Source: an uncultured Nitrosomonadales bacterium (GTDB lineage: Bacteria; Pseudomonadota; Gammaproteobacteria; Burkholderiales; Gallionellaceae). Taken from it: a stretch of 64,000 bases of DNA. The notes beneath the pieces were generated by a model. That model was not told the DNA's origin. It was given only the letters and a program-made list of their open reading frames with translations, and searched no databases. Shown in pieces: positions 30,450 through 53,062 of this stretch (its first letter is position 1; each line of letters starts with the position of its first letter). Made by a program: the position numbers and the translations under genes. Where the stretch lies: positions 2,205-66,204 of the forward strand of contig CAITJF010000152.1 in the NCBI GenBank assembly GCA_903892645.1, in the 5' to 3' direction.

Positions 30450-30459
30450 GGTTTCCTCA

Positions 30460-35116: not shown

Positions 35117-35206
35117 AGAAACTTGGTGCTTGGGCAACGAAAATTGCCATCGCTAAAAGCGGTACCCGAATTTCATTCAATTACCATTCACCCGGAGAAC
35201 TAACCG

Positions 35207-35347: not shown

Positions 35348-35407
35348 TTAGATTTTTGGAACTTTTTTTTGGAACTATTTTTTAGTTATCGTGCCAGGGA
35401 GGCCATT

Positions 35408-35557: not shown

Positions 35558-35609
35558 CCGCATTCACGCTGGATTTATTTTAATTTTTTCTTTTTAAGAG
35601 GGGGCTTCA

Positions 35610-36155: not shown

Positions 36156-36158
36156 GAA

Positions 36159-37856: not shown

Positions 37857-37881
37857 TGGGCGCAAGTTGACCTAAGGCGTG

Positions 37882-37918
37882 CCAAAACGGTGGGAGGTTT
37901 TTTCTCCTGCCGTTTTGG
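37882..37918 (+). other. Stem-loop between subunit I and the heme O synthase gene
   Basis: Perfect 9-bp stem CCAAAACGG (37882-37890) / CCGTTTTGG (37910-37918), extended by a partial inner GGGAG/CTCC pairing. No trailing U-run follows. Confidence 0.4.
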
Positions 37919-37971
37919 AGTTAAAGGCACAAGGTGTGGATATTTCACGCCCAACCACTTGGGGTTTGTAT

Positions 37972-38829: not shown

Positions 38830-38837
38830 TTTTGCCG

Positions 38838-39686
38838 ATGCGTCTATGGCTGTTGCTGGGCCTGTTGGGGATGGCGGGAGCGGCGTTTGCCTCAGGGGGA
38901 AACGTTCAACCCGCAGCACCCGTTAAATTCGATCAAAAATCTGCATTGCAATTCAGTCAAAGTGTAGTCGGCCAGCAGATGGCCGACTATGCCTTGCTTG
39001 ACCGCAACGGTCAGGCAGTCAGGCTTTCCAGTTATCGCGGCAAGCCGGTGCTGGTGAGCTTTATTTATACCGGTTGTTCGGTAACCTGCCCCGCCACCAC
39101 ACAATATCTTGCCAAAGCGGTCAAATACATGCAGAACGCTCTTGGTGCTGACAGCTTCCAGGTGTTGACTGTCGGCTTCAATGCCCCTTGGGATTCGCCA
39201 CAGGCGATGCGCGATTTTGCTTCACGGCAAAATATCAAGTTGCCACACTGGGAGTTTCTGAGTGCAGATGCGGCAACCATGCAGAATTTCACGCGAGACC
39301 TCGGATTCAGCTACGCCTATTCGGTCACTGGTTTCGATCATATTTCCCAGCTCACCTTGCTTGACCAGGAAGGCAAGGTTTATCGCCAAATATACGGTGA
39401 TAATTTCGAGTTGCCTCAGATGGGTGAGCCGTTAAAAAAACTGGTGGGCAATGTGCAAACCCAGTATCCCGGTTGGGAGGGTTTGAGCAACCGCATTCGC
39501 TTGTTCTGTACCGTTTATGATCCCAGCACGGGATCCTATACCACCGATTATTCGTTTTTCTTCGGCATATTTATCAGCTTGGTGATGACTTATTACTTCG
39601 TCAAATGGATTGTCCGTGAATGGCGCCGCGCCCCACGCCGCAACCCTCCCAAAGCCAATGAGGCAGTTGAAATAAAACCATCCTAG
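38838..39686 (+). CDS. SCO1/SenC-family protein with C-terminal membrane helix
   Basis: The likely start is MRLWLLLGLLGMAGAAFA at 38838. It has the thioredoxin-like CSVTC (CxxxC) motif, a conserved His (FDHISQ) and the C-terminal TM FFFGIFISLVMTYYFV. Confidence 0.8.
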   Translation: MRLWLLLGLLGMAGAAFASGGNVQPAAPVKFDQKSALQFSQSVVGQQMADYALLDRNGQAVRLSSYRGKPVLVSFIYTGCSVTCPATTQYLAKAVKYMQNALGADSFQVLTVGFNAPWDSPQAMRDFASRQNIKLPHWEFLSADAATMQNFTRDLGFSYAYSVTGFDHISQLTLLDQEGKVYRQIYGDNFELPQMGEPLKKLVGNVQTQYPGWEGLSNRIRLFCTVYDPSTGSYTTDYSFFFGIFISLVMTYYFVKWIVREWRRAPRRNPPKANEAVEIKPS

Positions 39687-39785
39687 CCATGCCTGCGCTC
39701 AGTGCTGAGTTCAGTAGTTGTGTAATCACGATCATTTTGAGCGATGCCATGGTTTATGCCTGTGAAGTAGGCGGTAAAACAAAAA

Positions 39786-39814
39786 TTGCAACCAGGAAAA
39801 TCAGCTGTCATAAT
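39786..39814 (+). promoter_or_regulatory. Candidate sigma70 promoter for the second half of the cluster
   Basis: TTGCAA (39786-39791), a 17-nt spacer, then CATAAT (39809-39814), in the 177-bp AT-rich spacer after the SCO gene. Confidence 0.45.
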
Positions 39815-39863
39815 GCTAAAAGGTATATTATTAATACATCTTTTATAATATGATTAATATGGG

Positions 39864-41795
39864 GTGGTCATGATCAAGTTGATACAGCGTATTGGGCAGG
39901 GTCTGTTGCTGCGTGTGGAAAAAGGATTCAATGCCATTTTCGGCGCGGAGCTGAATCCGTTGTACCAGCTTGGCGCCATTTTGTTTTTCCTGTTCTGGGT
40001 GGTATTGGGGAGCGGGTTTTATCTTTACGCGTTTTATCGCACCGGAGTAAGCGAGGCGTATTCTTCGGTCGATAAAATCACCCACGAACAATGGTATCTG
40101 GGCGGTATCATGCGCAGCCTGCACCGCTATGCCTCGGATGGCATGGTGGTCTTGGTGCTGGTGCACATGGCGCGCAATTTTGTGATGAACCGCTTGAGCG
40201 GCTTCCGTGCTTTTTCCTGGCTTACCGGTATCGTGCTCCTGCTACTGTTAATTATTTCCGGCATCAATGGCTACTGGCTGGTGTGGGATCAGCTTGCGCA
40301 ATTCGTTGCCGTGGCCAGCACGGAATTCCTGGACTGGCTGCCGGTTTTCGTCTCCCCATTGGTGCGCAATTTCCTGACCCCGGACAGCATCAATGACCGT
40401 TTCTTCTCGTTGCTGTCTTTCATGCATTTGGGCATTCCGCTTGGGATGCTGATTTTCATCATGGTTCACACCCAACGGGTGAGCGGAGCCAAGACCCAGC
40501 CTTCGAGGCCACTTGCGATTGGACTAGGCCTTACGCTGCTGGTGCTGGCTCTGGTTAAGCCAGCTTTGAGCCAGGGCGGCCAGGCTGACCTGAGCACGAT
40601 TGCCGCGCAAATCAAGCTGGACTGGTTTTTCATGGCGGTTTACCCACTGATTTATATGTGGTCGCCGAACCAGTTGTGGGCGCTGGTTGGTGGCTTCCTG
40701 GCTTTTCTCCTGCTGTTGCCATTGCTGGCGCGCACCAAACGCATGAGCGAAGGTTTCCAGATCACCACTGCGCCGAGCATGCGCACCTTTACGGCCAAGC
40801 CGGGTGAAACTGTATTGGAAGCAGCGTTGCGTCAGGATATTCGGCTGCCTTACACATGTCGCGATGGAGCCTGCGGAAATTGCAAGGGCACCATTCTGCA
40901 TGGGGCGGTTGATTATGGCGTGCATCAGGAAGATGCCTTGAGCGAGCAGGACAAGCAGGCAGGCAAGGCGTTGTTCTGCTGCGCCACGCCGTTGTCCGAT
41001 ATGGAAATTGAATATTACGAAAATGAAACACTGAAACAAGTCCCAGTGAAGCTCATGCAGTGCCGTGTACATAAGATGGTGCGCGCCACGCCGGATGTGA
41101 TGGTGCTGTATTTGAAAATGCCGCAGGGCAGTAAACTGCAATTTTTTGCCGGCCAATATCTCGACATTCTGCTGGAGGATGGTGCACGCAGAAGCTTCTC
41201 GTTCGCCAATGCCCCGCACGATGACGGATTTATCCAATTGCACATCCGTCTAATTCCAGGCGGCAAGTTCACCAATCATGTGTTCACGCAAATGAAGGAA
41301 GGCGACGAGCTGAGCTTTGAAGGCCCGCTTGGTACTTTCTTCCTGAACGAGAAAAGTGATATGCCGATAATTTTTGTGGCCGGCGCTACTGGCTTCGCAC
41401 CAGTGAAAAGTATGTTGGATCACGCTTTTTACACTGGCTCCAAGCGCCGTATGCTGTTGTACTGGGGGGTGAAAATGCGCAAAGATTTATACATGGCCGA
41501 TTTGCCGGAGCTCTGGCAACGGGAGCACGACAATTTTACTTTTATACCGGTGCTGTCCGAGCCGGGGCCGGATGATAACTGGCAGGGGCGTACCGGCTTG
41601 GTGCATGAGGCCATTTTGCAGGATCACCCTGACCTGAGTGGCTTCCAGGTTTATGCTTGCGGCTCGATGCTAATGGTACAGGCAGCGCGTCCGGCTTTTC
41701 TCGCGCAGGGGTTGCCGGAAAATGCATGTTTTTCGGATGCCTTCCTGTTGCCTACACATAAGGTAGCGCAACCTGCCGTGGAGGTGCAACCATGA
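39864..41795 (+). CDS. Fusion protein: cytochrome b-type membrane domain + plant-type 2Fe-2S ferredoxin + FNR-like FAD/NAD(P)H reductase
   Basis: Start at GTG 39864 or ATG 39870. Four heme-ligand His sit in cytochrome b context (SLHRYASD, LVHMARNF, FMHLGIP, MVHTQR). Also present: CRDGACGNC...CC, then RSFSF, GPLG and GATGFAP motifs. Confidence 0.8.
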   Translation: MVMIKLIQRIGQGLLLRVEKGFNAIFGAELNPLYQLGAILFFLFWVVLGSGFYLYAFYRTGVSEAYSSVDKITHEQWYLGGIMRSLHRYASDGMVVLVLVHMARNFVMNRLSGFRAFSWLTGIVLLLLLIISGINGYWLVWDQLAQFVAVASTEFLDWLPVFVSPLVRNFLTPDSINDRFFSLLSFMHLGIPLGMLIFIMVHTQRVSGAKTQPSRPLAIGLGLTLLVLALVKPALSQGGQADLSTIAAQIKLDWFFMAVYPLIYMWSPNQLWALVGGFLAFLLLLPLLARTKRMSEGFQITTAPSMRTFTAKPGETVLEAALRQDIRLPYTCRDGACGNCKGTILHGAVDYGVHQEDALSEQDKQAGKALFCCATPLSDMEIEYYENETLKQVPVKLMQCRVHKMVRATPDVMVLYLKMPQGSKLQFFAGQYLDILLEDGARRSFSFANAPHDDGFIQLHIRLIPGGKFTNHVFTQMKEGDELSFEGPLGTFFLNEKSDMPIIFVAGATGFAPVKSMLDHAFYTGSKRRMLLYWGVKMRKDLYMADLPELWQREHDNFTFIPVLSEPGPDDNWQGRTGLVHEAILQDHPDLSGFQVYACGSMLMVQAARPAFLAQGLPENACFSDAFLLPTHKVAQPAVEVQP

Positions 41796-42304
41796 GCCAG
41801 CCGCTGAAATACTTGGGGCAAGGGCTAGCCTACGCGCTGTTCGCCGTGGTGCTTGGTTATTTCTCCACTTCACCGGAGTACGCGCACTTGCCGGCGGATT
41901 CCGCGCTGCTTAAGCTGAGTTTCAACCACGCGGCCCAGCGAAAGAAACCGTGCCACGAGCGCACCGACGAGGAAATGGCCAAGCTGGCAAAAAATATGCG
42001 GATACGCAAGGATTGTCCGCGCGAACGCTCCGACGTGGTGGTGGAGTTGGAGATGGACGGCAAGCAGTTGTACCATGTCGTGCTGCACCCGCCCGGCCTG
42101 TCGCATGACGGTGCCGCTTCAATATATCGCCGCCTGCCGGTGCCGGCAGGCCCCCATCGTTTCGTGGCGCGCCTGAAGGATATGGAGGGGGGCGATTTCA
42201 GCTTTGTGCACGAGGAAAACATTACTCTTGGCGCCGGCAAGGTAATGGTGATTGATTTCAAGGCCGACGTTCCCGGCGCCCCCGGCTTTATGTTTAAGAG
42301 TTAG
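41792..42304 (+). CDS. Membrane-anchored hypothetical protein, translationally coupled to the preceding gene
   Basis: Its ATG overlaps the upstream TGA (ATGA at 41792-41795). It has an N-terminal TM (LAYALFAVVLGYF) and a ~130-aa soluble domain with two Cys. No family recognised. Confidence 0.6.
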   Translation: MSQPLKYLGQGLAYALFAVVLGYFSTSPEYAHLPADSALLKLSFNHAAQRKKPCHERTDEEMAKLAKNMRIRKDCPRERSDVVVELEMDGKQLYHVVLHPPGLSHDGAASIYRRLPVPAGPHRFVARLKDMEGGDFSFVHEENITLGAGKVMVIDFKADVPGAPGFMFKS

Positions 42305-42310
42305 GACAAC

Positions 42311-43717
42311 ATGACTATTCCCGTGGAAGCGAACTCTCCTTATGATGCGCCGCCGGATGTTGGCGGTGTGTATGCGTTGCCCACGCCGCATCAAGCCAGC
42401 CAGCGCTTGGCTGCCGGCTGGCTGTGGCTGAGTTTTGCCGCACTGGTGGGGGCAGGTTTTTTTGCTCTGCTGGTAGTGATGGCGCGTACACCTTATGTGT
42501 CCGATATTTTTCCCACGGTAGATTTTTTCCGTAGCGCCCTGGTGGTGCATGTGGATTTGTCGGTGCTATTGTGGTTCTTTGCTTTCGCCGGTGTGCTGTG
42601 GGGTGCAGCCTCCCCTCCAAAGTGGATGCCCCTCGGTTGGGTAGCGCTGTTGCTGGCGGTGGTAGGCGTGATAGTGGTTGTGGTTTCGCCGTTTGTCAGC
42701 ACCGGCGGGCCGCTCATGAATAACTATATTCCGGTGCTGGAAAACAGGGTGTTCCTTACCGGTTTGTTCCTGTTTGGTTGCGGTATCGGGTTGCTTGCCT
42801 TGCGTGGCCTGCTGACGATTCCCCTCACCGGGTTTGGTGCAAATAGAGATGGCGGCATACTTTGTTTCGGCCTTTATACTGCCGCAGTGGCGACGACGAT
42901 GGCGCTCATCGCATTTTCCTGGGCATTCGCAACCATTCCGTTTTTTGTGCGCGGTCTTCCTTATTACGAGGCGCTGTTTTGGGGTGGTGGGCATGTGATG
43001 CAATTCGCCTATACCCTGCTGATGTTGGTTGGCTGGTTGTGGCTGTCCTCTGAATGCGGTGCCCAGGTGCCATTAACTCCGCGCATATCACTGTTCCTGT
43101 TCGCCTTGGGGGTTGCACCGGTGCTGTTTACACCGCTGATCTACGCCCTTTATGAGACCAATACCGGCGATAACATGGGAATGTTCATCTGGATGATGAA
43201 AATCGGTGGCAGCCTGGCGGCTGTGCCGATTGGGCTGGCGGTAGCGTATGCAATGGGGAACCGTGGCTATCCTGACCCTTCGAAGCGTCCGCTGTTTGCT
43301 GCCTTGCTGTGTTCGATGGTTTTGTTTGCGGTGGGCGGTGGCATTAGCCTCATGATCAAGGATAGCAACACCATCATCACCGCGCATTATCATGGTACCG
43401 GGGGCGCTGTGAGCCTGGCTTTCATGGGGCTGGCTTTTGTGCTGCTGCCCAAGCTGGGGTTTCGTGCGCCTGATTTGAAGCTTGCCAGCTGGCAGCCTTA
43501 TGTGTACGGTATCGGGCAGTTGCTGCACATCATCGGGCTGCTGTGGTCGGGTGGGTACGGCGTGCAACGCAAGGTCGCTGGAGCAGCCCAGGAATTGCAC
43601 AGTTTCGGGCAGGTCGCCGGAATGGGATTGATGGGAATAGGCGGGTTAATCGCCGTGATCGGCGGCCTGATGTTTCTGGTGGTGGTGTTTCGTGCAATGA
43701 GGGGGCGAACACGTTAG
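42311..43717 (+). CDS. Heme-copper subunit-I-like 12-TM protein lacking two CuB histidines
   Basis: 468 aa. It retains H80 (VVHVDLSVLLWFF), H228 (WGGGHVMQF) and H359/H361 (AHYHGT). The HH position, 49/50 residues after H228, is I277-Y278 (codons 43139-43144). Confidence 0.75.
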   Translation: MTIPVEANSPYDAPPDVGGVYALPTPHQASQRLAAGWLWLSFAALVGAGFFALLVVMARTPYVSDIFPTVDFFRSALVVHVDLSVLLWFFAFAGVLWGAASPPKWMPLGWVALLLAVVGVIVVVVSPFVSTGGPLMNNYIPVLENRVFLTGLFLFGCGIGLLALRGLLTIPLTGFGANRDGGILCFGLYTAAVATTMALIAFSWAFATIPFFVRGLPYYEALFWGGGHVMQFAYTLLMLVGWLWLSSECGAQVPLTPRISLFLFALGVAPVLFTPLIYALYETNTGDNMGMFIWMMKIGGSLAAVPIGLAVAYAMGNRGYPDPSKRPLFAALLCSMVLFAVGGGISLMIKDSNTIITAHYHGTGGAVSLAFMGLAFVLLPKLGFRAPDLKLASWQPYVYGIGQLLHIIGLLWSGGYGVQRKVAGAAQELHSFGQVAGMGLMGIGGLIAVIGGLMFLVVVFRAMRGRTR

Positions 43718-43804
43718 CGCCGCAGGCGGCCATTACGCCACGCTTTTCGGCTTTGTAGCTCGTTACGACTTCTCTTATTTTGACAGCAACGTAGTTTGCA
43801 TAGA

Positions 43805-45382
43805 ATGCGCAAATATCTACAAAACTTGTTGCTGCGTCTGGAAAACGCATTCAATGCGCCGTTCGGTCAGGCATTGAATCCTTGGTACCACCTCGGCGCG
43901 ATCACCTTTTATCTGTTCTGGATCGTGGTGGTAAGCGGCGTTTATCTCTATATCTTTTACCGAACCGGGGTGGATGAAGCCTACCAGTCGGTCGAACGCC
44001 TTACCCATGATCAATGGTATGCCGGCGGCGTGATGCGCAGCCTGCACCGCTATGCTTCTGACGGCATCGTGGTGACGATGCTGCTGCATATGCTGCGCAA
44101 TTTTATTACCGGACGTTTCCACAGCTTCCGCTGGTTTTCCTGGGTGAGCGGGGTTTTTCTGATCTGGCTGGTTTACACTTGCGGCATCAACGGCTACTGG
44201 ATGGTGTGGGACAGGCTGGCGCAATTCATTGCCGTGGGCACTGCGGAATGGTTCGATTGGATGCCGCTGTTCAGCCAGCCGCTGGCGCGCAACTTTCTCG
44301 TGCAAGGCGATGTCAATGATCGCTTCTTTGCACTGCTGTCGTTTGCCCACATCACCATTCCGCTGGTATTGCTGCTGTTCATGTGGATACATACCAAGCG
44401 CATGAACCACGCCGAAACCAACCCTCCCCTGCGCCTTGCGGTCGGCACGCTGCTTATGCTGCTGGCGCTGTCGCTGGTCAAGCCGGCGCTAAGCCACGCA
44501 CATGCCGATCTGGCGCTGTTGCCTGATGTGATCCGACTTGACTGGTTTTATCTGGCGCCGTATCCGCTGCTTTATATCTGGTCGCCTGGCGCGGTGTGGG
44601 TGTTGGTTGGCGGGATTACCGCGCTGCTCCTATTGGTGCCGTGGTTATTCAGGCCGCGCACGCGCCCTGCGGTGGCGGAGGTGCATCTGGACAATTGCAA
44701 CGGTTGTGCACGTTGCGCTGCCGACTGTCCTTATTCGGCCATTGTGATGCATCCGCGCCAGGACGGCAGGCCGCACCAATTACAGCCAGTGGTAGATCCG
44801 GACTTGTGCGCAAGTTGCGGCATTTGCGTCGGTGCCTGTCCATCTTCCATGCCGTTCCGCAGTAACGAACTGGTGAGCGGTATCGAGTTGCCGGATCAGG
44901 AGTTGGCGACGCTACGTGCAGGTATTGATCGTACACTGGCGGTGTTGCACGGCGATGCGCGCGTTATGGTGTTTGGCTGCGATTGTGCCTACGATGTGCA
45001 TGCATTGCAGTCGGAGGGAGTGGCGGCGCTTTCGCTCCCCTGCATCGGCATGCTGCCACCAGCGTTTATTGACTACGTGCTGCGCGACGCACGTGTTGAT
45101 GGGGTGATGGTTGCCGGTTGCCGTGAAGGGGATTGCCAATACCGTCTTGGCATCCGCTGGACGGAGTTGCGCCTGGCACGCCAGCGAGTACCGCATTTGC
45201 GCCAGCGAGTGCCACTTCAGCGTATCGAGTTTTGTTGGGCCGGCATACAGGATGATGAGCGGGCACGCGCGGAACTCGGCACTCTGCGTGCGCGGGTGGC
45301 GCAACTGCCGCGAGAAATAATCATGGAAGAGGATTCGCGAGAGCATGAACGCCAGTCCGGTGACAAAAACCAACCTGATTAA
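43805..45382 (+). CDS. Fusion protein: cytochrome b-type membrane domain + 2x[4Fe-4S] ferredoxin + MvhD/FlpD-like domain
   Basis: The likely start is ATG 43805 (MRKYLQNLLLRLENAF, parallel to its paralogue); the track ORF starts at 43796. The N-terminal half is a paralogue of 39864..41795 with the same four His. Then come CNGCARCAADCP and CASCGICVGACP, then FGCDC...LPCIGML...VAGCREGDCQYRLG. Confidence 0.8.
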   Translation: MRKYLQNLLLRLENAFNAPFGQALNPWYHLGAITFYLFWIVVVSGVYLYIFYRTGVDEAYQSVERLTHDQWYAGGVMRSLHRYASDGIVVTMLLHMLRNFITGRFHSFRWFSWVSGVFLIWLVYTCGINGYWMVWDRLAQFIAVGTAEWFDWMPLFSQPLARNFLVQGDVNDRFFALLSFAHITIPLVLLLFMWIHTKRMNHAETNPPLRLAVGTLLMLLALSLVKPALSHAHADLALLPDVIRLDWFYLAPYPLLYIWSPGAVWVLVGGITALLLLVPWLFRPRTRPAVAEVHLDNCNGCARCAADCPYSAIVMHPRQDGRPHQLQPVVDPDLCASCGICVGACPSSMPFRSNELVSGIELPDQELATLRAGIDRTLAVLHGDARVMVFGCDCAYDVHALQSEGVAALSLPCIGMLPPAFIDYVLRDARVDGVMVAGCREGDCQYRLGIRWTELRLARQRVPHLRQRVPLQRIEFCWAGIQDDERARAELGTLRARVAQLPREIIMEEDSREHERQSGDKNQPD

Positions 45383-46299
45383 CGCCTGCGCAGCCGGTAG
45401 TTAAGTGACACCAGAATGAGCAGCAGGAATGCCGCTGTGGCGTTATGAAGCAGCACCAGAAAAAGCGGCAGGCTGTATGCCACGGCGCTGATTCCCAGAG
45501 CGACTTGCAGCGTGAGCGCGGCGATCAGCAGCATGCCGCTGCGCCGCAAATTTTCCCGGATCAGGCAGGCTCCTAACCAGGCAAGATAACAAAACACCAG
45601 CAGCGCGGAGAAACGGTGCGCCATGTGCAAAGTCTGCTGCGCAGCACCCGGAATGAAGTTGCCGCCCTGTGGCACTTTCAACACCTGAAAAGGATTGAAG
45701 TCCGCCAGTGATGCGTGCTGTAGCCATCCATCGCAGCCGGATGGACCGGTGCAGCTTAAGGCAGCGAAACTCGCACTGACCATGCCCCCCAGCGTTATTT
45801 GTACCACGAGCAGCCCCAACCCCAGTGATACCCACCTGCGCAAACGTGAAGAGGCAGCGTATCGAGGCACGTATCCGAGATGTAATCGCCACAGCAGCGC
45901 CAGCATTCCCAGGCCGCCGAGCAGGTTGCCGAGCGCAACCGCTGGCAGGTGTGCGTTGTGCGTCCATTTGCCGAGCACTGCAAGGAAAGCCGTTAGCCCC
46001 AATAATGCCAGCGCAGGCGGAAAATCACCGGGTGCCACGCGGCGGCGGCGCCAGGCGAGTGAGGTAATGGCAAGGGCGGTAAAACCCATGGTGCTCGCCG
46101 CAATGCGGTGAGTGGTATTTATCCAGTTCGGATGGGGAGGGGCAAGGCCAGCCAGATTGTGTCCATAACATGCAGGCCGGTCGGGGCAGCCCAACCCGGC
46201 GCCAGTCAGGCGCATGTGGGCACTTAGCAAGATGATTATCGCCATTAGTGCGAAGGTGAACAGCACCAAGCCGTGGAATACGCGATTACCGTCAGCCAT
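45379..46299 (-). CDS. ctaA: Heme A synthase (COX15/CtaA family)
   Basis: 306-aa polytopic protein with N-terminal LLSAHMRLTGAGLGCPDRPACYG and paired His-containing helices. Its stop overlaps the convergent gene's stop (TTAA at 45379-45382). Confidence 0.8.
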   Translation of the reverse strand: MADGNRVFHGLVLFTFALMAIIILLSAHMRLTGAGLGCPDRPACYGHNLAGLAPPHPNWINTTHRIAASTMGFTALAITSLAWRRRRVAPGDFPPALALLGLTAFLAVLGKWTHNAHLPAVALGNLLGGLGMLALLWRLHLGYVPRYAASSRLRRWVSLGLGLLVVQITLGGMVSASFAALSCTGPSGCDGWLQHASLADFNPFQVLKVPQGGNFIPGAAQQTLHMAHRFSALLVFCYLAWLGACLIRENLRRSGMLLIAALTLQVALGISAVAYSLPLFLVLLHNATAAFLLLILVSLNYRLRRR

Positions 46300-46336
46300 G
46301 TGACCTCAGAAGGCGAACCTTACCTGAATCTCTTTT

Positions 46337-46516
46337 TCAGGGATTAATGAAGGTAATTATTTGGGAGGTGGTTACCGCAAGAACCGAGATGATAACCAAA
46401 AAAACCAGGCTACGATATTTGAAGCGGCCACCGTAGGCGTTCTCGAGACGGTCAAGCAGCCAGTCTGATACGAAATAAAGACCAAGGGCGATCAGGGTGT
46501 AATAAAGGTAAGCCAT
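46337..46516 (-). CDS. 59-aa two-TM micro-protein upstream of ctaA (below ORF-track cutoff)
   Basis: Hand translation: MAYLYYTLIALGLYFVSDWLLDRLENAYGGRFKYRSLVFLVIISVLAVTTSQIITFINP. There is no clear Shine-Dalgarno, so coding status is uncertain. Confidence 0.3.
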   Translation of the reverse strand: MAYLYYTLIALGLYFVSDWLLDRLENAYGGRFKYRSLVFLVIISVLAVTTSQIITFINP

Positions 46517-46639
46517 GAATTATAAATGTCCGTCAGCACGTTATTATCTTCGACATCAAGATGGTTGCACAATATGGGCTGTTCTTATGTGCTTGGCGCA
46601 AGTTGCCGGGAGTGACTACCTGACCACACTAGGCCGCGC

Positions 46640-46680
46640 AAAAAAGACAATGGCGCACCGGGAAAAACCAGTAGTGCGCC
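46640..46680 (-). terminator. Rho-independent terminator after the cytochrome c gene
   Basis: The stem GGCGCAC (46652-46658) / GTGCGCC (46674-46680) is followed on the minus strand by ATTGTCTTTTTT. Confidence 0.55.
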
Positions 46681-46734
46681 ATGTGTCCAGTTATGCAGTT
46701 GCGAGAAACCGCTGCTGCATTGGTTCGTTCGTTA

Positions 46735-47049
46735 TTACAGCGAAAGAATCCAACCCACTGTGGACTTTATTTCAGCATCGGTCATCTTGCCTTTTTGCGC
46801 TGGCATTGGCATGGTGCCCCATACTCCGGAGCCGCCTTCTGTTACCTTTTTGATCAGCTTGGCTTCGGCAGTAGCGTCACCTTTGTATTTTGCGGCCACT
46901 TCCTTATATCCTGGCCCGACGAGTTTCATGTCCACTGCGTGGCAGTTCAGGCAGCCGGCTTTTTTGGCGAGGTCTTTCCCATCTTCGGCAAATGCCGGTG
47001 CGCTGAGGAAACAAGCGGTAATTCCTGCAATGATCAAAACTCTTTTCAT
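46735..47049 (-). CDS. Soluble class I cytochrome c (c551/c552-type)
   Basis: The likely start is MKRVLIIAGITACFLSAPAFA at 47049 with a GGAGA Shine-Dalgarno. Heme motif CLNCH and distal Met in WGTMPMP. Confidence 0.88.
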   Translation of the reverse strand: MKRVLIIAGITACFLSAPAFAEDGKDLAKKAGCLNCHAVDMKLVGPGYKEVAAKYKGDATAEAKLIKKVTEGGSGVWGTMPMPAQKGKMTDAEIKSTVGWILSL

Positions 47050-47144
47050 TTTATTTCTCCACGAGGTTAAAAAATCTGACGACAGTTGGTGAGATAGCCT
47101 AATTTCAGCCATAAGCATTTTGTGGCAAAACAACCATGTATTAC

Positions 47145-47158
47145 TTGATGTAAATCAA
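47145..47158 (-). promoter_or_regulatory. Perfect FNR box TTGAT-GTAA-ATCAA upstream of the cytochrome c gene
   Basis: TTGATGTAAATCAA. On the gene strand a -10-like CAAAAT (47122-47117) lies 22 nt downstream of the box. Confidence 0.65.
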
Positions 47159-47318
47159 ATTTCGACAGGTCAGCGCTACCGGTAACACTTGCTCTCGATG
47201 GTATGGGAGAGAAAAATGGCAAGGCGACAACCGCAACCAAAACAACTGGGTAAGGTAAGCAAGTTTCTCACCCATATGCTTTAACGAACGGTTCCGTTTT
47301 GCGTTGACAGTATGGCTG

Positions 47319-48053
47319 CTAGAGGAATTGCGGCGGCGGGCCGACGTAGGCTTGTAACCCAGGCAGATTATGAAGCTCCACCGATTTGTTGCGTATGTTA
47401 ATCAACCCGATCCCCTGGAAGTGTGACAGTGTGCGGCTGACCGTTTCCAGCTTCATCCCGAGATAGCTGCCGATTTCCTGGCGCGTCATGCGCAAATGGA
47501 ATGATGTGGGCGAGTAACCGCGTGTGGCAAAGCGCTGCGACAGGTTAAGCAGGAAGGCAGCCAAACGCTCTTCTGCGCGCATCGAGCCGAGCAGCAGCAT
47601 GATGCCTTGGTCACGCACGATCTCGCGGCTCAGGATGCGGTGCAGGTGGCGTTGCAGAGAGGGTAATTTGCGGCTGAGTTCCTCCAGTTGGCTAAAAGGG
47701 ATCTCGCATACCTCGCTGTCTTCCAAGGCGATCGCATCGCAGGTATGTGCATCGCTGCTGATGGCATCCAACCCGATGATTTCCCCTGCCATTTGGAAGC
47801 CGGTGACCTGTTCGCGGCCATCTTCGTGCAGCACTTGGGTCTTGAAAAAACCGGTACGGATGGCATATAGAGACTGGAATTTTGCGCCACTGCGGTATAA
47901 GTAATCGCCGCGCTGGTATGCGTGCTTCAGGCTGATTAAGTCATCCAGCTGCTCCAAGTCAGCCTCAGTGAGTTTCCTGGGCAGGCACAGCTCACGCAAG
48001 TTACAGCCGGAACAGGCGACTCTTAGCGGGGTTAGAGAGACGGATTTTTGCAC
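47319..48053 (-). CDS. fnr: FNR-type O2-sensing Crp/Fnr family regulator
   Basis: 244 aa. N-terminal Cys cluster ACSGCNLRELCLP plus an internal Cys. cNMP-like domain and the HTH recognition motif ETVSRTL (E--SR). Confidence 0.88.
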   Translation of the reverse strand: MQKSVSLTPLRVACSGCNLRELCLPRKLTEADLEQLDDLISLKHAYQRGDYLYRSGAKFQSLYAIRTGFFKTQVLHEDGREQVTGFQMAGEIIGLDAISSDAHTCDAIALEDSEVCEIPFSQLEELSRKLPSLQRHLHRILSREIVRDQGIMLLLGSMRAEERLAAFLLNLSQRFATRGYSPTSFHLRMTRQEIGSYLGMKLETVSRTLSHFQGIGLINIRNKSVELHNLPGLQAYVGPPPQFL

Positions 48054-48107
48054 GTTTTTCTTGAGTTAGGCAGCATAATTTTTATAGGCATAATTATGAC
48101 AGGGATT

Positions 48108-48121
48108 TTGACCTATATCAA
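48108..48121 (+). promoter_or_regulatory. FNR box TTGAC-CTAT-ATCAA in the fnr-hemN divergent spacer
   Basis: 9 of 10 consensus half-site positions match. CATAAT sits at 48143-48148, 21 nt after the box and about 30 nt before the hemN ATG. Confidence 0.65.
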
Positions 48122-48178
48122 ACGCACGCCATGGCTTGCTAGCATAATCCGATAACTTAGTGAGCCAGCAGAATTATC

Positions 48179-49582
48179 ATGTCCTCAAATATAAAAGCAT
48201 CATCCGAATTAGAAGTTGATCTGGAGTTAATCCGCAGGCTGGACAAGAACGGCCCGCGTTACACCTCCTATCCTACCGCCGACCGTTTTGTCGAGGCGTT
48301 CAATGCCGAAAGCTACCGCAATTGGGTGGCCAAGCGCGAGATTGGCGGTATCAACCGTCCGCTGTCGTTGTATGTGCACATTCCATTCTGCAATACACTG
48401 TGCTTTTACTGCGCCTGCAACAAGGTGATCACCAAAGATCGCAGCAGGGCGGAAGATTATGTCCGCTACCTGATCAAGGAGCTGGCCATGCAGGCTGCCT
48501 TGCTGGGCGATGGGCAGCGCGTTGAACAGTTGCATTGGGGTGGCGGCACCCCAACCTTTCTGAGCGACGACCTGATGCGCGAATTAATGGGTGCTACCCG
48601 AAAGCATTTCAAGCTGGTGGAAAATGGTGAGTATTCCATTGAAATAGACCCGCGCAAAGTCAGCGACCAGACCATCATCCTGCTTGGCGAATTGGGCTTC
48701 AATCGTATCAGCATCGGTGTGCAGGACTTTGATCCGTTGGTGCAGCGCGCGGTAAATCGTATCCAAAGTGAGGCAGAAACGCTGCAGGTGATCCGCGCGG
48801 CGCGTGCCAACGGCTTCAAGTCGGTTAGTCTCGATCTCATTTATGGGTTGCCCAAGCAGACCCTGACGGGCTTTAAAGCCACTCTGGAGAAGGTGATTGC
48901 CGCCAATCCGGATCGCCTGTCCATCTACAACTATGCGCACATGCCCACCATTTTCAAGCCGCAGCGCCGTATCCACGAGGAAGACTTGCCCTCGCCGCAG
49001 GTCAAGCTGGATATTCTCAGCCTCGCGGTCAAGACGCTGACTGATGCCGGTTATGTGTATATCGGCATGGATCACTTTGCCAAGCCAGATGATGAGTTGG
49101 CGATAGCGCAGCGCCAAGGCAGGCTGCACCGCAATTTCCAGGGCTATTCCACGCATTCCGACTGTGACCTGGTGGCGATAGGGGTGAGTTCCATCGGCAA
49201 GATCGGCCCTACCTACAGCCAGAATTTCCGTGAGCTGGAAGATTACTACGACGCGCTTGACCGTGACGAATTGCCCATCATGCGCGGCATGGAACTGAAT
49301 TCAGACGACCTGGTGCGTCGCGCCATCATCCAGGCCCTGATGTGCCATTTCGAGCTTTCCAAGGAATCTTTCAACATCGCCTACCTCATCGACTTTGATC
49401 GCTACTTCGCCACCGAACTCGGTGAGCTGAAGGAATACGAGCGCGAAGGGCTGCTCAAGCTCACGCCGGAGTGGATCAGCGTCACGCCAAAGGGGCGCAT
49501 GCTAATCCGCAATATCTGCATGGTGTTCGACAAATATCTGCGCACGAGACAGGAACATGCACGCTATTCCAAGGTCATATAG
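48179..49582 (+). CDS. hemN: Oxygen-independent coproporphyrinogen III oxidase (radical SAM)
   Basis: 467 aa. HIPFCNTLCFYCAC (CxxxCxxC) and GGGTPTFL motifs. Confidence 0.93.
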   Translation: MSSNIKASSELEVDLELIRRLDKNGPRYTSYPTADRFVEAFNAESYRNWVAKREIGGINRPLSLYVHIPFCNTLCFYCACNKVITKDRSRAEDYVRYLIKELAMQAALLGDGQRVEQLHWGGGTPTFLSDDLMRELMGATRKHFKLVENGEYSIEIDPRKVSDQTIILLGELGFNRISIGVQDFDPLVQRAVNRIQSEAETLQVIRAARANGFKSVSLDLIYGLPKQTLTGFKATLEKVIAANPDRLSIYNYAHMPTIFKPQRRIHEEDLPSPQVKLDILSLAVKTLTDAGYVYIGMDHFAKPDDELAIAQRQGRLHRNFQGYSTHSDCDLVAIGVSSIGKIGPTYSQNFRELEDYYDALDRDELPIMRGMELNSDDLVRRAIIQALMCHFELSKESFNIAYLIDFDRYFATELGELKEYEREGLLKLTPEWISVTPKGRMLIRNICMVFDKYLRTRQEHARYSKVI

Positions 49583-49600
49583 CGGCATGATTCGCAAGGG

Positions 49601-50851
49601 ATGGTAATGAAATGCGTAGATGATTTTCGCTTGCGCTTAGGCAAGCAGGAACTGGTGCCGATTATGGTCGGCGGGATGGGCGTAGATATATCGACCGCCG
49701 ATCTTGCGTTGGAGATTGCCCGCCTAGGCGGTGTAGGCCACATTTCCGACGCAATGTTGCCTACTGTTACAGATCGGCGCTACGACACCGATTTCGTTAA
49801 AAACAAACTCCAGCAGTACAAATACAACCTCGACAACTCCGATAAATCTGCAGTGAAATTCGATCTCGGCCAGGTTGCCGAGGCCACGCGTTTGCACGTG
49901 AGCCATGCCATGCAATCCAAGCGCGGAGAGGGCATGATTTTCATCAACTGCATGGAAAAGCTTACCATGAATGCGCCACGCGAGACGCTTACCGTGCGCT
50001 TGCGCACCGCACTGGATGCCGGTATAGACGGCATTACGCTGGCCGCCGGACTGCATCTGGGTTCGTTCGCGATGATAGAAGACCACCCGCGTTTTCGCGA
50101 TGCCAAGCTTGGCATCATCGTCTCCTCGCTACGTGCGTTGCAGCTGTTCCTGCGCAAAAACGCCAGAACCAGCCGTCTGCCGGATTTTATCGTGGTGGAA
50201 GGCCCGCTTGCAGGTGGCCATTTGGGTTTTGGTATGGACTGGGCAAAATACGATCTGCGTACCATCGTGAACGAGATTTACCTGTATCTGCAAGCCGAGC
50301 ATCTGGATATTCCAGTCATCCCCGCAGGAGGGATTTTTACCGGCAGCGACGCTGTATCTTTTCTCGAGGAAGGTGCTGCGGCAGTGCAAGTGGCGACGCG
50401 CTTTACCGTGGCGCACGAATGCGGCTTGCCGCAGGACGTGATGCAGGAATATTTCAAGGCCGGTGAAGACGATATCGTGGTTAACACCATCTCGCCCACC
50501 GGTTACCCGATGCGTATGTTGAAAAACACCCCGGCCATCGGTTCGGGCATCCGCCCCGGTTGCGAATCCTACGGCTACCTGCTCGATGCCAACGGCAACT
50601 GCTCCTACATTGATGCGTATAACCGCGAGGTCGCGGCGCACCCGGACGCAAAGACAATTTCCGTGATGGATAAGACCTGTCTGTGTACTCACATGCGCAA
50701 CTATAAGTGCTGGACCTGCGGGCACTACACCTACCGATTAAAGGACACCACACGCCGCTTGCCAGACGGTAGCTATCAGGTTCTCAGTGCGGAACAAGTG
50801 TTTCATGACTACCAGTTCAGTGCTGACAATAAAATTGCTTTGCCTGATTAG
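49601..50851 (+). CDS. Nitronate monooxygenase/NPD-like FMN oxidoreductase with Cys-rich C-terminal extension
   Basis: 416 aa. TIM-barrel NPD-like motifs (PIMVGGMGVDIS, VVEGPLAGGHLG, IPAGGI). The extra C-terminus has CLCTHMRNYKCWTCGH. The start may be ATG 49607. Confidence 0.7.
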   Translation: MVMKCVDDFRLRLGKQELVPIMVGGMGVDISTADLALEIARLGGVGHISDAMLPTVTDRRYDTDFVKNKLQQYKYNLDNSDKSAVKFDLGQVAEATRLHVSHAMQSKRGEGMIFINCMEKLTMNAPRETLTVRLRTALDAGIDGITLAAGLHLGSFAMIEDHPRFRDAKLGIIVSSLRALQLFLRKNARTSRLPDFIVVEGPLAGGHLGFGMDWAKYDLRTIVNEIYLYLQAEHLDIPVIPAGGIFTGSDAVSFLEEGAAAVQVATRFTVAHECGLPQDVMQEYFKAGEDDIVVNTISPTGYPMRMLKNTPAIGSGIRPGCESYGYLLDANGNCSYIDAYNREVAAHPDAKTISVMDKTCLCTHMRNYKCWTCGHYTYRLKDTTRRLPDGSYQVLSAEQVFHDYQFSADNKIALPD

Positions 50852-50985
50852 TCTCATACCTTACATGCACTCACGGTAAATCCGTAGCGTGTAAGTGTTT
50901 CGCCCGAGTTATCTAACATCTCACTAGCCTTCAGCAGGTTTTGGCTTCGTTTATAATCGCCCCATCACTTTCAAGAGGTGGCGCC

Positions 50986-53016: not shown

Positions 53017-53024
53017 ACACCGCA

Positions 53025-53046
53025 GGGGCGCGATTAATCGCGCCCC
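53025..53046 (+). terminator. 22-nt perfect palindrome after asmA (possible terminator)
   Basis: GGGGCGCGATTAATCGCGCCCC. No U-run follows, so terminator function is uncertain. Confidence 0.35.
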
Positions 53047-53062
53047 ACAGAACAATTCATCT

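What the first reader, a model, noticed from the sequence alone, without database searches (positions are those of the whole stretch)
43796..45382. Paralogous cytochrome b module fused to a 2x[4Fe-4S] ferredoxin and an MvhD/FlpD-like domain
The N-terminal half is a clear paralogue of 39864..41795. For example, MRSLHRYASDGIVVTMLLHMLRNF and FALLSFAHITIPLVLLLFMWIHTKRM retain the same four His.

The C-terminal half has two CxxCxxCxxxCP motifs (CNGCARCAADCP, CASCGICVGACP). After them comes a Cys-rich block, VMVFGCDCAYD...LPCIGMLPP...VMVAGCREGDCQYRLG. That block resembles the delta subunit of methyl-viologen-reducing hydrogenase (MvhD/FlpD), a module best known from heterodisulfide-reductase-linked, flavin-based electron-bifurcating complexes of anaerobes.

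A membrane cytochrome b tethered to such a module, next to a sister protein tethered to an NAD(P)H reductase, suggests two electron entry or exit points of different potential feeding the same membrane unit.
Basis: partly seen in the sequence, partly recalled or inferred. Interest (0 to 1): 0.8.

Follow-up and report, generated by a model that had tools for sequence, protein, structure and literature searches.

The report
Cytochrome b–iron-sulfur wire of eNOR operons
This gene encodes a membrane cytochrome b fused to three cytoplasmic iron-sulfur clusters; it always travels with one clade of nitric-oxide reductase (eNOR) genes, so it is probably an uncharacterised electron wire for that enzyme.

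Summary
ORF 43796..45382 (likely start ATG 43805) has three parts:
- a bc1/b6-type di-haem cytochrome b with four invariant His;
- a 2x[4Fe-4S] ferredoxin domain with eight invariant Cys;
- an MvhD/FlpD domain with four invariant Cys (Pfam 38 bits against a cut-off of 22; profile against solved MvhD chains E = 3e-12).

Its cytochrome b part is 59% identical to that of 39864..41795, which carries [2Fe-2S]-FAD-NAD instead.

The gene lies in an operon for an eNOR-type nitric-oxide reductase: a CuA subunit II, a subunit I with Gln in place of the active-site Tyr, and a perfect FNR box upstream.

- In 82 fetched loci (80 from genomes of Alpha-, Beta- and Gammaproteobacteria) the fusion is almost always next to eNOR, SCO and a 170-aa β-sandwich protein.
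- In the converse test it was present in 21 of 22 eNOR loci of this subclade and in 0 of 13 distant eNOR loci.
- The FNR-fused sister is a single, mainly betaproteobacterial offshoot (about 20 loci).
- No Rieske, HdrA or hydrogenase gene is nearby.

It is most likely a transmembrane electron wire between a cytoplasmic partner and the quinone/eNOR side. The direction of flow is unresolved. A 2026 preprint on Ferrigenium already flagged both genes, so this is a new variant of a known kind.

The parts
43796..45382 (+). Gene for the cytochrome b-2x[4Fe-4S]-MvhD-like fusion. It is 528 aa from TTG 43796; the likely true start is ATG 43805, giving 525 aa.
   Evidence: The AF2 model has pLDDT 88 and pTM 0.85.
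43796..44650 (+). Membrane module, residues 1-285: a bc1/b6-type cytochrome b with helices A-F. Haem ligands are H84/H185 (P-side haem) and H98/H199 (N-side haem). D249-W250-F251 lies in the PEWY position.
   Evidence: Pfam. Profile against the PDB: b6 at 6e-29, and mitochondrial cytochrome b aligned up to residues 285-292. Foldseek top hits are bc1 cytochrome b with about 290 aligned columns. TM helices come from the model.
44675..44851 (+). Cytoplasmic 2x[4Fe-4S] ferredoxin domain, residues 294-352, with motifs CNGCARCAADCP and CASCGICVGACP.
   Evidence: Together with the next domain it matches the C-terminal part of HdrA2, positions 568-771.
44960..45307 (+). MvhD/FlpD-like domain, residues 389-504, with invariant C395, C416, C442 and C447. 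It is a presumed [2Fe-2S] site.
39864..41795 (+). Sister fusion: the same cytochrome b module followed by plant-type [2Fe-2S], FAD and NAD(P) domains (BenC/MmoC-like reductase).
   Evidence: It is present in about 20 of 82 loci. Its cytochrome b part forms one clade.
41792..42304 (+). 170-aa protein with one TM helix and a β-sandwich domain. C54, C75, H46, R77 and R79 are invariant or nearly so. It is the most constant neighbour of the fusion.
   Evidence: Found in 79 of 82 loci. Invariant residues. No Pfam or NCBIfam hit. AF2 pLDDT 89, with no significant PDB match.
42311..43717 (+). eNOR-I-derived paralogue of 468 aa. It keeps a GGGH..Q motif and a HYHG motif but lacks the HH pair of the CuB/FeB site.
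   Evidence: It is present in roughly 30 loci at 37% identity or more.
35610..36155 (+). eNOR subunit II, a cupredoxin with the CuA motif CNEYCGIGHHTM.
36159..37856 (+). eNOR subunit I, a derivative of B-family haem-copper oxidases. It has GHSSQQ where oxidases have GHPxVY.
   Evidence: The Gln signature of eNOR is taken from PMC8756737, Table A4.
37879..38829 (+). Haem O synthase (CtaB/UbiA family). Named from its position in the operon and by homology; Pfam was not run on the window copy itself.
   Evidence: The ORF is. The equivalent gene in related loci L083/L084 scores PF01040 UbiA, and the gene is co-located in 51 of 82 loci.
38760..39686 (+). SCO1/SenC copper chaperone with a C-terminal TM segment.
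   Evidence: Co-located in 75 of 82 loci.
45379..46299 (-). Haem A synthase (CtaA/COX15), convergent with the fusion gene and overlapping it by 4 nt.
35103..35116 (.). Perfect FNR/Dnr-type box TTGATATACATCAA upstream of the operon.
   Evidence: There are only two perfect boxes in the 64 kb, both at this locus. At one mismatch or fewer there are 8 sites against 2.1 expected.
47319..48053 (-). CRP/FNR-family regulator next to the operon.

Best explanation
**What it is.** The gene encodes an integral-membrane di-haem cytochrome b of the bc1/b6 type.
- It has helices A-F.
- The P-side quinol pocket (Qo type) is retained in outline.
- No Rieske partner is encoded nearby.

Its C-terminus lies in the cytoplasm and carries a three-cluster wire: two [4Fe-4S] clusters and an MvhD-type [2Fe-2S] cluster.

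**What it belongs to.** It is a fixed component of the operon of one proteobacterial clade of eNOR-type nitric-oxide reductases. The operon is expressed from an FNR-box promoter under low oxygen.

**How it works.** It acts as a transmembrane electron wire linking a cytoplasmic redox partner to the P-side quinone pocket, and through that pocket or directly to the CuA of eNOR.

**Direction I consider most likely (inferred, not shown).** Flow is cytoplasm to membrane:
1. reduced ferredoxin-like donor;
2. [2Fe-2S];
3. two [4Fe-4S];
4. N-side haem;
5. P-side haem;
6. quinone or eNOR;
7. NO.

The betaproteobacterial sister does the same job with NAD(P)H through its own FAD/[2Fe-2S] reductase. This would give the NO reductase an electron supply from cytoplasmic reductant.

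**Shown by sequence and comparison:** the domains, the ligands, the topology and the operon linkage.

**Inferred:** cofactor occupancy, physical association with eNOR, the identity of the partner and the direction of flow.
For: **Domains and ligands.**

**Topology.** The model shows six TM helices (29-54, 74-105, 110-135, 175-201, 212-228, 264-284). By the known topology of cytochrome b, the C-terminal Fe-S domains are therefore on the N side. pTM is 0.85.

**bc-type fold through helix F.**
- Foldseek matches about 290 columns to bc1 cytochrome b.
- HMM alignments to mitochondrial cytochrome b run to residues 285-292.
- By the alignment offset this places the invariant D249-W250 at the E-W of PEWY.
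- The GYWxxWD motif before the cd helices is conserved.

**Linkage to eNOR.**
- tblastn on 82 loci found hyp170 in 79, SCO in 75, eNOR I in 67 and eNOR II in 63. The loci lacking them are mostly short contigs.
- Converse test: 21 of 22 eNOR loci with subunit I at 52% identity or more to the window carry the fusion, against 0 of 13 below 52%.

**eNOR identity.**
- Gln replaces the cross-linked Tyr (PMC8756737).
- NO-reductase activity of an eNOR was shown for Rhodothermus marinus (PMC11214002).

**Denitrification context in related loci.** Neighbours include cd1 nitrite reductase-family genes, NirJ and NirDL, NnrS, a NosR-like protein and hemerythrin.

**Regulation.** There is a perfect FNR box upstream and a CRP/FNR regulator alongside.

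**Direction of flow.**
- The sister's module is a BenC/MmoC/NqrF-type reductase. By established knowledge of this family, all characterised members oxidise NAD(P)H.
- Its [2Fe-2S] domain sits directly after helix F, in the same position as the Fer4 domain here.

**Expression.** Both proteins were detected in the F. straubiae proteome under denitrifying Fe(II) oxidation (preprint).
Against: - No cytoplasmic donor is encoded in the conserved neighbourhood, so the partner of the MvhD-like end is unknown.
- A Qo-type pocket is a quinol-oxidising site in every characterised bc complex. That favours the opposite direction of flow.
- In Fe(II)-oxidising autotrophs, which are the lineages that carry the FNR sister, spending NAD(P)H on NO reduction looks wasteful, whereas making NAD(P)H would be valuable.
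- eNOR already has a CuA entry for periplasmic donors. Distant eNOR operons work without this gene.
- No complex model, cofactor distances or redox potentials could be obtained here.
Confidence: 0.4

Rival explanations
1. **Rieske-less bifurcating quinol oxidation.** Quinol is oxidised at the Qo-type pocket. One electron goes to the high-potential arm (eNOR CuA, then NO). The other crosses the two b haems to the cytoplasmic Fe-S wire and reduces ferredoxin, or NAD(P)+ in the FNR sister. NO reduction would thereby pay for reverse electron flow.
For: - Features of the Qo-type pocket are conserved: D249-W250 in the PEWY position and cd-helix motifs.
- The FNR sister is confined to Gallionellaceae and related, mostly autotrophic, lineages that need NAD(P)H from high-potential electrons.
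- The same idea was proposed for this operon in F. straubiae (preprint).
- It was also proposed for anammox Rieske/cytochrome b complexes that carry an N-side Fe-S/FAD NAD(P) reductase (PMC12954380).
- My own estimate from standard potentials: 2 QH2 + 2 NO + NAD+ is exergonic, about +0.34 V per electron with ubiquinone.
Against: - No Rieske protein is encoded in the window or in any of 164 loci. CuA has never been shown to act as a first acceptor at a Qo site.
- With ubiquinone at about +90 mV and CuA at about +250 mV, the low-potential electron would not reach -320 mV, and it must also move against the membrane potential.
- The fusion is common in heterotrophic Alpha- and Gammaproteobacteria, which have no special need for reverse flow.
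- BenC-type reductases normally oxidise NAD(P)H.
Confidence: 0.22
2. **NarI/QmoC/HdrE-style redox loop.** Quinol is oxidised on the P side. Electrons cross to the cytoplasmic clusters and reduce a cytoplasmic acceptor of higher potential, for example a di-iron or hemerythrin-type NO/O2-handling protein. This conserves energy and is independent of the eNOR catalytic core.
For: - The layout is the same as in NarGHI and QmoC: a di-haem b anchor wired to cytoplasmic Fe-S centres. The QmoC description is in PMC3333476.
- A hemerythrin gene directly follows hyp170 in 20 Alpha/Gamma loci.
Against: - The FNR sister cannot run this way, because quinol to NAD(P)+ is uphill and would also generate pmf.
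- No acceptor gene is universally linked.
- The strict linkage to one eNOR clade is left unexplained.
Confidence: 0.12
3. **Maturation helper.** The fusion supplies electrons for cofactor biogenesis of eNOR, for example the conversion of haem O to haem A(s) by CtaA. In mitochondria that step needs ferredoxin plus ferredoxin reductase.
For: - The operon is rich in assembly genes: haem O synthase, SCO and an adjacent CtaA.
- eNOR uses a modified haem A (PMC11214002).
- The sister is literally a ferredoxin plus ferredoxin-reductase fusion.
- The dependence of Cox15 on Yah1/Arh1 is established knowledge; it was not checked here.
Against: - ctaA is within 10 kb in only 16 of 82 loci.
- A complete di-haem bc-type cytochrome b with a conserved quinol pocket is far more than a chaperone-type role requires.
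- Distant eNOR operons also need haem A yet lack the gene.
Confidence: 0.1

Closest known systems
QmoC of the QmoABC complex (together with the MvhD-like domain of QmoB) in sulfate reducers
   Same: It is a single polypeptide that fuses a di-haem membrane cytochrome b to a cytoplasmic Fe-S electron-transfer domain. An MvhD-type [2Fe-2S] module belongs to the same wire. It links the quinone pool with a cytoplasmic partner (PMC3333476).
   Different: - The cytochrome b of QmoC is of the HdrE/NarI type. Here it is the bc1/b6 type with a Qo-like pocket.
- The Fe-S part of QmoC is HdrC-like and the MvhD domain sits on another subunit. Here an HdrA-C-terminal-like ferredoxin and MvhD are fused in cis.
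- The context is APS reductase there and an eNOR NO reductase here.
- No HdrA-like flavoprotein is present here.
Anammox Rieske/cytochrome b complexes with an N-side NAD(P) oxidoreductase (Kuste4569-4574, Kustd1480-1485)
   Same: A bc/b6-type cytochrome b is wired on the cytoplasmic side to a chain of Fe-S clusters, with FAD/NAD(P) as in the sister gene. Both are embedded in N-oxide metabolism. A bifurcation function has been proposed but not proven (PMC12954380).
   Different: - The anammox complexes have Rieske proteins, subunit IV and multihaem cytochromes c, and the reductase is a separate subunit.
- Here there is no Rieske and no cytochrome c1 or f.
- The Fe-S modules are fused to a cytochrome b that stops after helix F.
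- The high-potential neighbour is a haem-copper NO reductase.
MvhD, δ subunit of methyl-viologen-reducing hydrogenase, and the C-terminal half of HdrA2
   Same: The C-terminal 215 residues are homologous to the unit formed by the HdrA C-terminal ferredoxin domain plus MvhD. The [2Fe-2S] Cys pattern is the same.
   Different: - No hydrogenase or Hdr genes are nearby.
- The hosts are aerobic or denitrifying Proteobacteria.
- The module is tethered to a membrane cytochrome instead of bridging MvhG and HdrA.
- There is no flavin for flavin-based bifurcation.
The eNOR operon of Ferrigenium straubiae KS (bioRxiv 10.64898/2026.01.22.701106)
   Same: The gene order is the same: eNOR II, eNOR I, haem O synthase, sco1, cytochrome b-FeS-FAD-NAD, then cytochrome b-FeS. 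The preprint proposes a supercomplex that couples NO reduction to NAD+ reduction, and the proteins were seen in a proteome.
   Different: - The preprint calls the second protein only 'cytochrome b and [Fe-S] cluster domain' and regards both genes as unusual for eNOR operons.
- Here the MvhD-type domain is identified.
- The Fer4-FlpD form is shown to be the rule for a whole Alpha/Beta/Gamma eNOR subclade, and the FNR form to be the lineage-specific exception.

Membership tests
MvhD/FlpD (Pfam PF02662) | The profile HMM score is above the curated threshold. | tested here: met
   38.1 bits against a gathering score of 22.3, residues 406-504, profile positions 25-122 of 123. The family profile against solved MvhD chains gives E = 3e-12 and 2.5e-10.
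MvhD/FlpD (Pfam PF02662) | The Cys ligands of the [2Fe-2S] cluster are conserved. | tested here: met
   C395, C416, C442 and C447 are invariant in 75 homologues. C416, C442 and C447 align to the Cys of MvhD 'MCSG' and 'GCHxGDCHY'. C395 falls where the profile aligns to residue 18 of 5odc_D. Cluster occupancy itself was not tested.
MvhD/FlpD (Pfam PF02662) | It is associated with a [NiFe] hydrogenase (MvhAG) and/or an HdrA-type flavoprotein. | tested here: not met
   No such family is among the neighbours shared by several of the 84 loci clustered within ±10 kb. The neighbours are eNOR, SCO, CtaB, hyp170, nir genes, hemerythrin and NnrS.
Cytochrome b of Rieske/cytochrome b (bc1/b6f) complexes | A four-helix bundle carries two bis-His haems, with His pairs on helices B and D 14 residues apart. 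| tested here: met
   H84/H98 and H185/H199 are invariant. PF00033 gives E = 1e-18. Cytochrome b6 gives 6e-29. Foldseek top hits are bc1 cytochrome b.
Cytochrome b of Rieske/cytochrome b (bc1/b6f) complexes | The Qo site has a PEWY motif on the ef loop. | tested here: inconclusive
   The aligned position reads L-D-W-F, with D249 and W250 invariant. An acidic residue and the Trp are kept, but Pro and Tyr are not. Function as a quinol site is untested.
Cytochrome b of Rieske/cytochrome b (bc1/b6f) complexes | Partner Rieske [2Fe-2S] protein and cytochrome c1 or f are encoded with it. | tested here: not met
   There is no C-x-H-x-G-C...C-x-C-H motif in any frame of the window or of 164 related loci. 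No c1 or f gene is in the operon.
Cytochrome b of Rieske/cytochrome b (bc1/b6f) complexes | The full C-terminal domain (helices E-H, or subunit IV) and Qi-site residues are present. | tested here: not met
   Only helices E and F are present, and the chain then enters the ferredoxin domain. PF00032 is not detected. The loop after H199 is short, and the position five residues after the haem ligand, where the Qi-site His lies in bc1 (from memory), is not conserved.
eNOR nitric-oxide reductase operon (context, not the protein itself) | Subunit I is derived from the B family and has Gln in place of the cross-linked Tyr. Subunit II carries CuA. | tested here: met
   GHSSQQ aligns against GHP(V/L)VY of ba3-type oxidases. 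The signature is taken from PMC8756737 Table A4. The CuA motif CNEYCGIGHHTM is present. The sNOR signature (Asn) is absent.
ExtP b-type cytochrome (NCBIfam NF040969) | The score is above the curated cut-off. | tested here: not met
   109.5 bits against a cut-off of 290.
QmoC / HdrE / NarI-type cytochrome b fusions | The membrane domain has a NarI/HdrE-type fold. | tested here: not met
   The membrane domain is bc1/b6 type by HMM and by fold. No NarI-type cytochrome b family was among the Pfam hits at E 0.01 or better. The resemblance is functional only.

The most novel reading that the evidence does not exclude
The fusion, eNOR, hyp170 and (in Betaproteobacteria) the FNR sister form a supercomplex. 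A Qo-type site without a Rieske protein bifurcates quinol electrons. One electron goes to NO through CuA and eNOR. The other crosses the membrane to the MvhD-type wire and makes reduced ferredoxin or NAD(P)H. This would be a quinone-based, NO-driven route of reverse electron flow in denitrifying chemolithoautotrophs and beyond.
Probability: 0.18. Interest if true: 0.9.

Novelty: new variant of a known kind. Interest (0 to 1): 0.6.

Why it matters
eNOR enzymes are estimated to be a large, long-overlooked share of environmental NO reductases and N2O sources (PMC11214002). How they receive electrons is not known.

This work shows that one whole proteobacterial eNOR clade carries a dedicated membrane cytochrome b wired to cytoplasmic iron-sulfur clusters. 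That gives a concrete, testable candidate for its electron supply.

If the current runs the other way, it is instead a candidate for coupling NO reduction to the production of low-potential reductant. That would change energy budgets for nitrate-dependent Fe(II) oxidisers.

The protein is also a natural experiment: a bc-type cytochrome b working without a Rieske protein.

Tried and rejected
1. **sNOR idea (the norSY-senC-orf1 cluster of ammonia oxidisers).** Rejected. Subunit I has the Gln signature of eNOR, not the Asn of sNOR. Literature look-ups for NE0686 and similar tags found nothing useful.
2. **Protein search with eNOR subunit I.** It listed only close relatives, at 64% identity or more, so it could not serve the converse test. 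The representative search plus a metagenome scan replaced it.
3. **hyp170.** No Pfam or NCBIfam family matched. The AF2 model is confident, but the best Foldseek E-value is 4e-3 to unrelated β-sandwich domains. No cofactor motif and no functional clue emerged.
4. **Promoter and terminator scan of 34900..47400.** Counts were not clearly above the shuffled expectation, and no distinct internal signal stood out.
5. **Model coordinates.** They are not exposed to scripts. Haem-to-cluster distances and domain docking could not be measured, and no multimer prediction was possible.
6. **Search for a conserved cytoplasmic partner** (HdrA, hydrogenase, flavoprotein) among neighbour families: none found.
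7. **Rieske motif scan:** none found.
8. **NJ tree of the cytochrome b modules.** It is distance-based and midpoint-rooted. It is used only for the statement that the FNR-type modules form one clade.
Full report

Yes. The window has an ORF at 43796..45382 on the + strand, 528 aa from a TTG. Public gene calls and all homologues begin three codons later, at the ATG at 43805, giving 525 aa.

Pfam finds three parts:
- Cytochrome_B, residues 23-200, E = 1e-18.
- A 4Fe-4S dicluster domain, residues 300-350, E = 1e-9.
- FlpD (PF02662), residues 406-504, 38.1 bits against a gathering score of 22.3.

An alignment of 75 homologues at 51-87% identity has these invariant residues:
- the four His (H84, H98, H185, H199);
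- all eight Cys of the two CxxCxxCxxxCP motifs;
- four Cys of the last domain (C395, C416, C442, C447).

The N-terminal 266 residues are 59% identical to the product of 39864..41795 (E = 1e-102). That product continues with Fer2, FAD_binding_6 and NAD_binding_1 domains and resembles BenC, MmoC and NqrF reductases.

**2. Anatomy of the protein**

The family profile matches cytochrome b6 best (6e-29). It aligns with mitochondrial cytochrome b as far as residues 285-292, that is through helices E and F.

An AlphaFold2 model built on the 75-sequence alignment is confident: mean pLDDT 88, pTM 0.85. It has an N-terminal surface helix and six transmembrane helices (29-54, 74-105, 110-135, 175-201, 212-228, 264-284). 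Foldseek against the PDB returns bc1 cytochrome b chains with about 290 aligned columns.

With the known topology of cytochrome b, several things follow:
- The C-terminal domains are cytoplasmic. This fits Fe-S domains that have no export signal.
- H84/H185 bind the P-side haem and H98/H199 bind the N-side haem.
- By the alignment offset to yeast cytochrome b, the invariant D249-W250-(F251) occupies the E-W-Y of the Qo-site PEWY motif.
- The GYWxxWD motif at the end of helix C is also conserved, so the P-side quinol pocket is kept in outline.
- The loop after H199 is short, and the usual Qi-site His position is not conserved. That is the place where the ferredoxin domain begins.

The last 215 residues match the C-terminal part of HdrA2, which is a ferredoxin domain plus MvhD. 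They also match solved MvhD chains: 9sw2_D at 3e-12 and 5odc_D at 2.5e-10. 'LPCIG' and 'GCREGDCQY' align on the MvhD Cys motifs.

The polypeptide therefore reads as two b haems, then two [4Fe-4S] clusters, then one [2Fe-2S] cluster. Cofactor occupancy is inferred, not shown.

**3. Context in the window**

The gene is the last in a co-directional row:
- two small membrane ORFs;
- a cupredoxin subunit II with a CuA motif (35610..36155);
- a haem-copper subunit I (36159..37856);
- a haem O synthase-type gene (37879..38829, named from the UbiA hit on its counterpart in L083/L084);
- SCO;
- the cytochrome b-FNR sister;
- a 170-aa protein;
- a 468-aa subunit-I paralogue without the HH pair;
- then this gene.

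Subunit I is closest to B-family oxidases. It has GHSSQQ where they have GHPxVY. Gln in place of the cross-linked Tyr is the published signature of eNOR; sNOR has Asn (PMC8756737, Table A4). An eNOR from Rhodothermus marinus has been shown to reduce NO (PMC11214002).

A perfect FNR/Dnr box (TTGATATACATCAA, 35103..35116) lies upstream. Only one other perfect box exists in the 64 kb. It sits in front of the neighbouring cytochrome c gene, next to a CRP/FNR regulator and hemN. Simple scans show no clear internal promoter or terminator.

**4. Comparative evidence**

Their taxa are:
- Betaproteobacteria: Gallionellaceae, Nitrosomonadales, Burkholderiales, Rhodocyclales and the isolate Noviherbaspirillum sp. 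ST 5-3.
- Gammaproteobacteria: Acidiferrobacterales, Sulfuricaulis and Halieaceae.
- Alphaproteobacteria: Rhodospirillales, Hyphomicrobiales and Bradyrhizobium.

A Methylomirabilis-labelled protein also appears in the protein search.

tblastn with the window's proteins over 82 loci (these 80 plus two public contigs carrying the identical protein) found these next to the fusion:

| Neighbour | Loci (of 82) |
|---|---|
| 170-aa protein | 79 |
| SCO | 75 |
| eNOR I | 67 |
| eNOR II | 63 |
| CtaB | 51 |
| FNR sister | about 20 |

The loci that lack these neighbours are mostly short contigs. The usual order is eNOR II, eNOR I, (CtaB), SCO, fusion, hyp170. The loci with the FNR sister are nearly all Betaproteobacteria.

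In a distance tree, the cytochrome b parts of the FNR fusions form one clade beside the window-type Fer4-FlpD proteins. This fits a single duplication followed by a domain swap.

Other recurrent neighbours are denitrification genes: the cd1 nitrite reductase family, NirJ and NirDL, NnrS and a NosR-like protein. A hemerythrin gene lies directly after hyp170 in 20 loci.

For the converse test I took distant eNOR subunit I sequences from an exhaustive representative search. I used them to fetch 80 metagenome loci. Among loci with at least 4.5 kb downstream:

| eNOR I identity to the window | Loci | With the fusion |
|---|---|---|
| 52% or more | 22 | 21 |
| below 52% | 13 | 0 |

One distant locus inspected by Pfam has only a regulator, a YwiC-like protein, subunits II and I, and haem O synthase.

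The gene is therefore a hallmark of one eNOR subclade, not of eNOR in general. No Rieske motif occurs in the window or in any of 164 loci. No HdrA, hydrogenase or other flavoprotein family is shared among the neighbours.

**5. How it most likely works**

Shown by sequence and comparison:
- a di-haem bc-type membrane module;
- a cytoplasmic three-cluster extension;
- obligate operon linkage to an eNOR clade;
- an anaerobic-type promoter box.

Inferred: it is a transmembrane electron wire joining a cytoplasmic partner to the P-side quinone pocket and/or eNOR.

I favour flow from the cytoplasm into the membrane (confidence 0.4), for three reasons:
- The domain-swapped sister carries a reductase type that, in every characterised relative, oxidises NAD(P)H and passes electrons out through its [2Fe-2S] centre.
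- That centre sits exactly where the Fer4 domain sits here.
- A downhill path from NAD(P)H or ferredoxin through Fe-S centres, the N-side haem and the P-side haem to quinone or CuA needs no unusual potentials.

The main rival (0.22) is the reverse: a Rieske-less Qo site bifurcates quinol electrons between eNOR and the cytoplasmic wire. This has been proposed for the same operon in Ferrigenium straubiae (bioRxiv 10.64898/2026.01.22.701106) and, with Rieske proteins, for anammox complexes (PMC12954380).
- In its favour: the conserved Qo-type pocket, and the restriction of the FNR sister to lineages that are mostly chemolithoautotrophs.
- Against it: there is no Rieske protein, the potentials of CuA and ubiquinone are unfavourable, electrons must move against the membrane potential, and the fusion is common in heterotrophs.

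Two weaker rivals remain:
- A NarI/QmoC-like redox loop to a cytoplasmic acceptor such as the adjacent hemerythrin (0.12).
- A role in haem A or cofactor maturation (0.1).

**6. Comparison with what is known**

- Closest in design is QmoC, with the MvhD-like domain of QmoB (PMC3333476). It has a different cytochrome b fold, a different Fe-S module and a different pathway.
- Closest in membrane module and in idea are the anammox Rieske/cytochrome b complexes with an N-side NAD(P) reductase. They have Rieske and cytochrome c subunits, and the reductase is separate.
- The C-terminal unit is a genuine member of the MvhD/FlpD family by profile and by Cys pattern. It lacks that family's usual hydrogenase or Hdr company.
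- The protein is not a member of ExtP (109 bits against a cut-off of 290) or of HdrA2 (59 against 1100).
- The same two genes were noticed in Ferrigenium in a May 2026 preprint, which reported both proteins in a proteome. That preprint did not recognise the MvhD domain and called the genes unusual for eNOR operons. The present survey shows that the Fer4-MvhD form is the rule for a large Alpha/Beta/Gamma eNOR clade.

**7. Verdict**

This is a widespread, biochemically uncharacterised respiratory component, and it is a new variant of a known kind: a cytochrome b anchor wired to cytoplasmic Fe-S centres. Its interest lies in the unknown electron supply of eNOR and in a bc-type cytochrome b that works without a Rieske protein.

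The direction of flow, the cytoplasmic partner and physical association with eNOR all remain to be tested.

Noticed in passing
window 42311..43717 (+): A 468-aa paralogue of eNOR subunit I with a weak COX1 hit (39 bits). It keeps a GGGH..Q motif and a HYHG haem-ligand motif but lacks the HH pair of the CuB/FeB site. Representatives of the same kind (P0343, P0385) turned up in the exhaustive search. It occurs in roughly 30 of the 82 loci. It may be a catalytically dead, haem-binding scaffold derived from eNOR.
   Followed up: partly
window 41792..42304 (+): A 170-aa protein with one TM helix and a β-sandwich domain. It has two invariant Cys (C54, C75), plus H46, R77 and R79. It matches no Pfam or NCBIfam family and no significant PDB fold. 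It is the most constant neighbour of the fusion (79 of 82 loci).
   Followed up: yes
window 35207..35347 and 35409..35558 (+): Two small ORFs for single-helix membrane peptides lie between the FNR box and eNOR subunit II. The second (49 aa, ending ...PTVFYTLWGVMEVATIPLGK) recurs upstream of subunit II in other loci. It may be a small eNOR subunit.
   Followed up: partly
window 35103..35116, 47145..47158, 48108..48121: FNR/Dnr-type boxes lie in front of the eNOR operon (perfect), the cytochrome c gene 46735..47133 (perfect) and hemN (one mismatch). A CRP/FNR regulator gene (47319..48053) sits among them. Together they look like a small anaerobic regulon.
   Followed up: partly
related loci, e.g. 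L017 12040..12480, L070 12047..12469, L008 8305..8751: In 20 Alpha/Gamma loci a roughly 140-aa hemerythrin gene (PF01814) directly follows hyp170 in the eNOR operon. It could be a cytoplasmic partner or an NO/O2-binding accessory. It is absent from the window.
   Followed up: partly
window 33121..33729 (-): A second, canonical SCO1/SenC gene (152 bits) lies 2 kb upstream of the operon. This is in addition to the divergent operon-internal SCO (38760..39686), which has an extra C-terminal membrane segment.
   Followed up: no
alignment A4: eNOR-like subunit I sequences fall into two active-site types: GHxxQQ (the window clade) and GHxxQY. The Gln three residues after the His is the constant feature. 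The residue at the classical Tyr position is Q or Y. The published 'Tyr to Gln' signature may therefore depend on a one-residue alignment choice.
   Followed up: no
PMC8756737, Table A3: That table lists one protein, RME88945.1, under three domains at once: cytochrome b6 (PRK03735), DMSOR_beta-like and FlpD. It appears in a table of ORF domains from the paper's sequence survey and is not discussed there. A protein with the same three-domain make-up has therefore been recorded before. Whether it also carries a cytochrome c domain could not be judged from the passage read.
   Followed up: no
window 1..22000 versus 22000..64000: G+C is about 0.58-0.63 over roughly the first 22 kb and about 0.48-0.59, mostly below 0.57, afterwards. 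The boundary was not examined.
   Followed up: no
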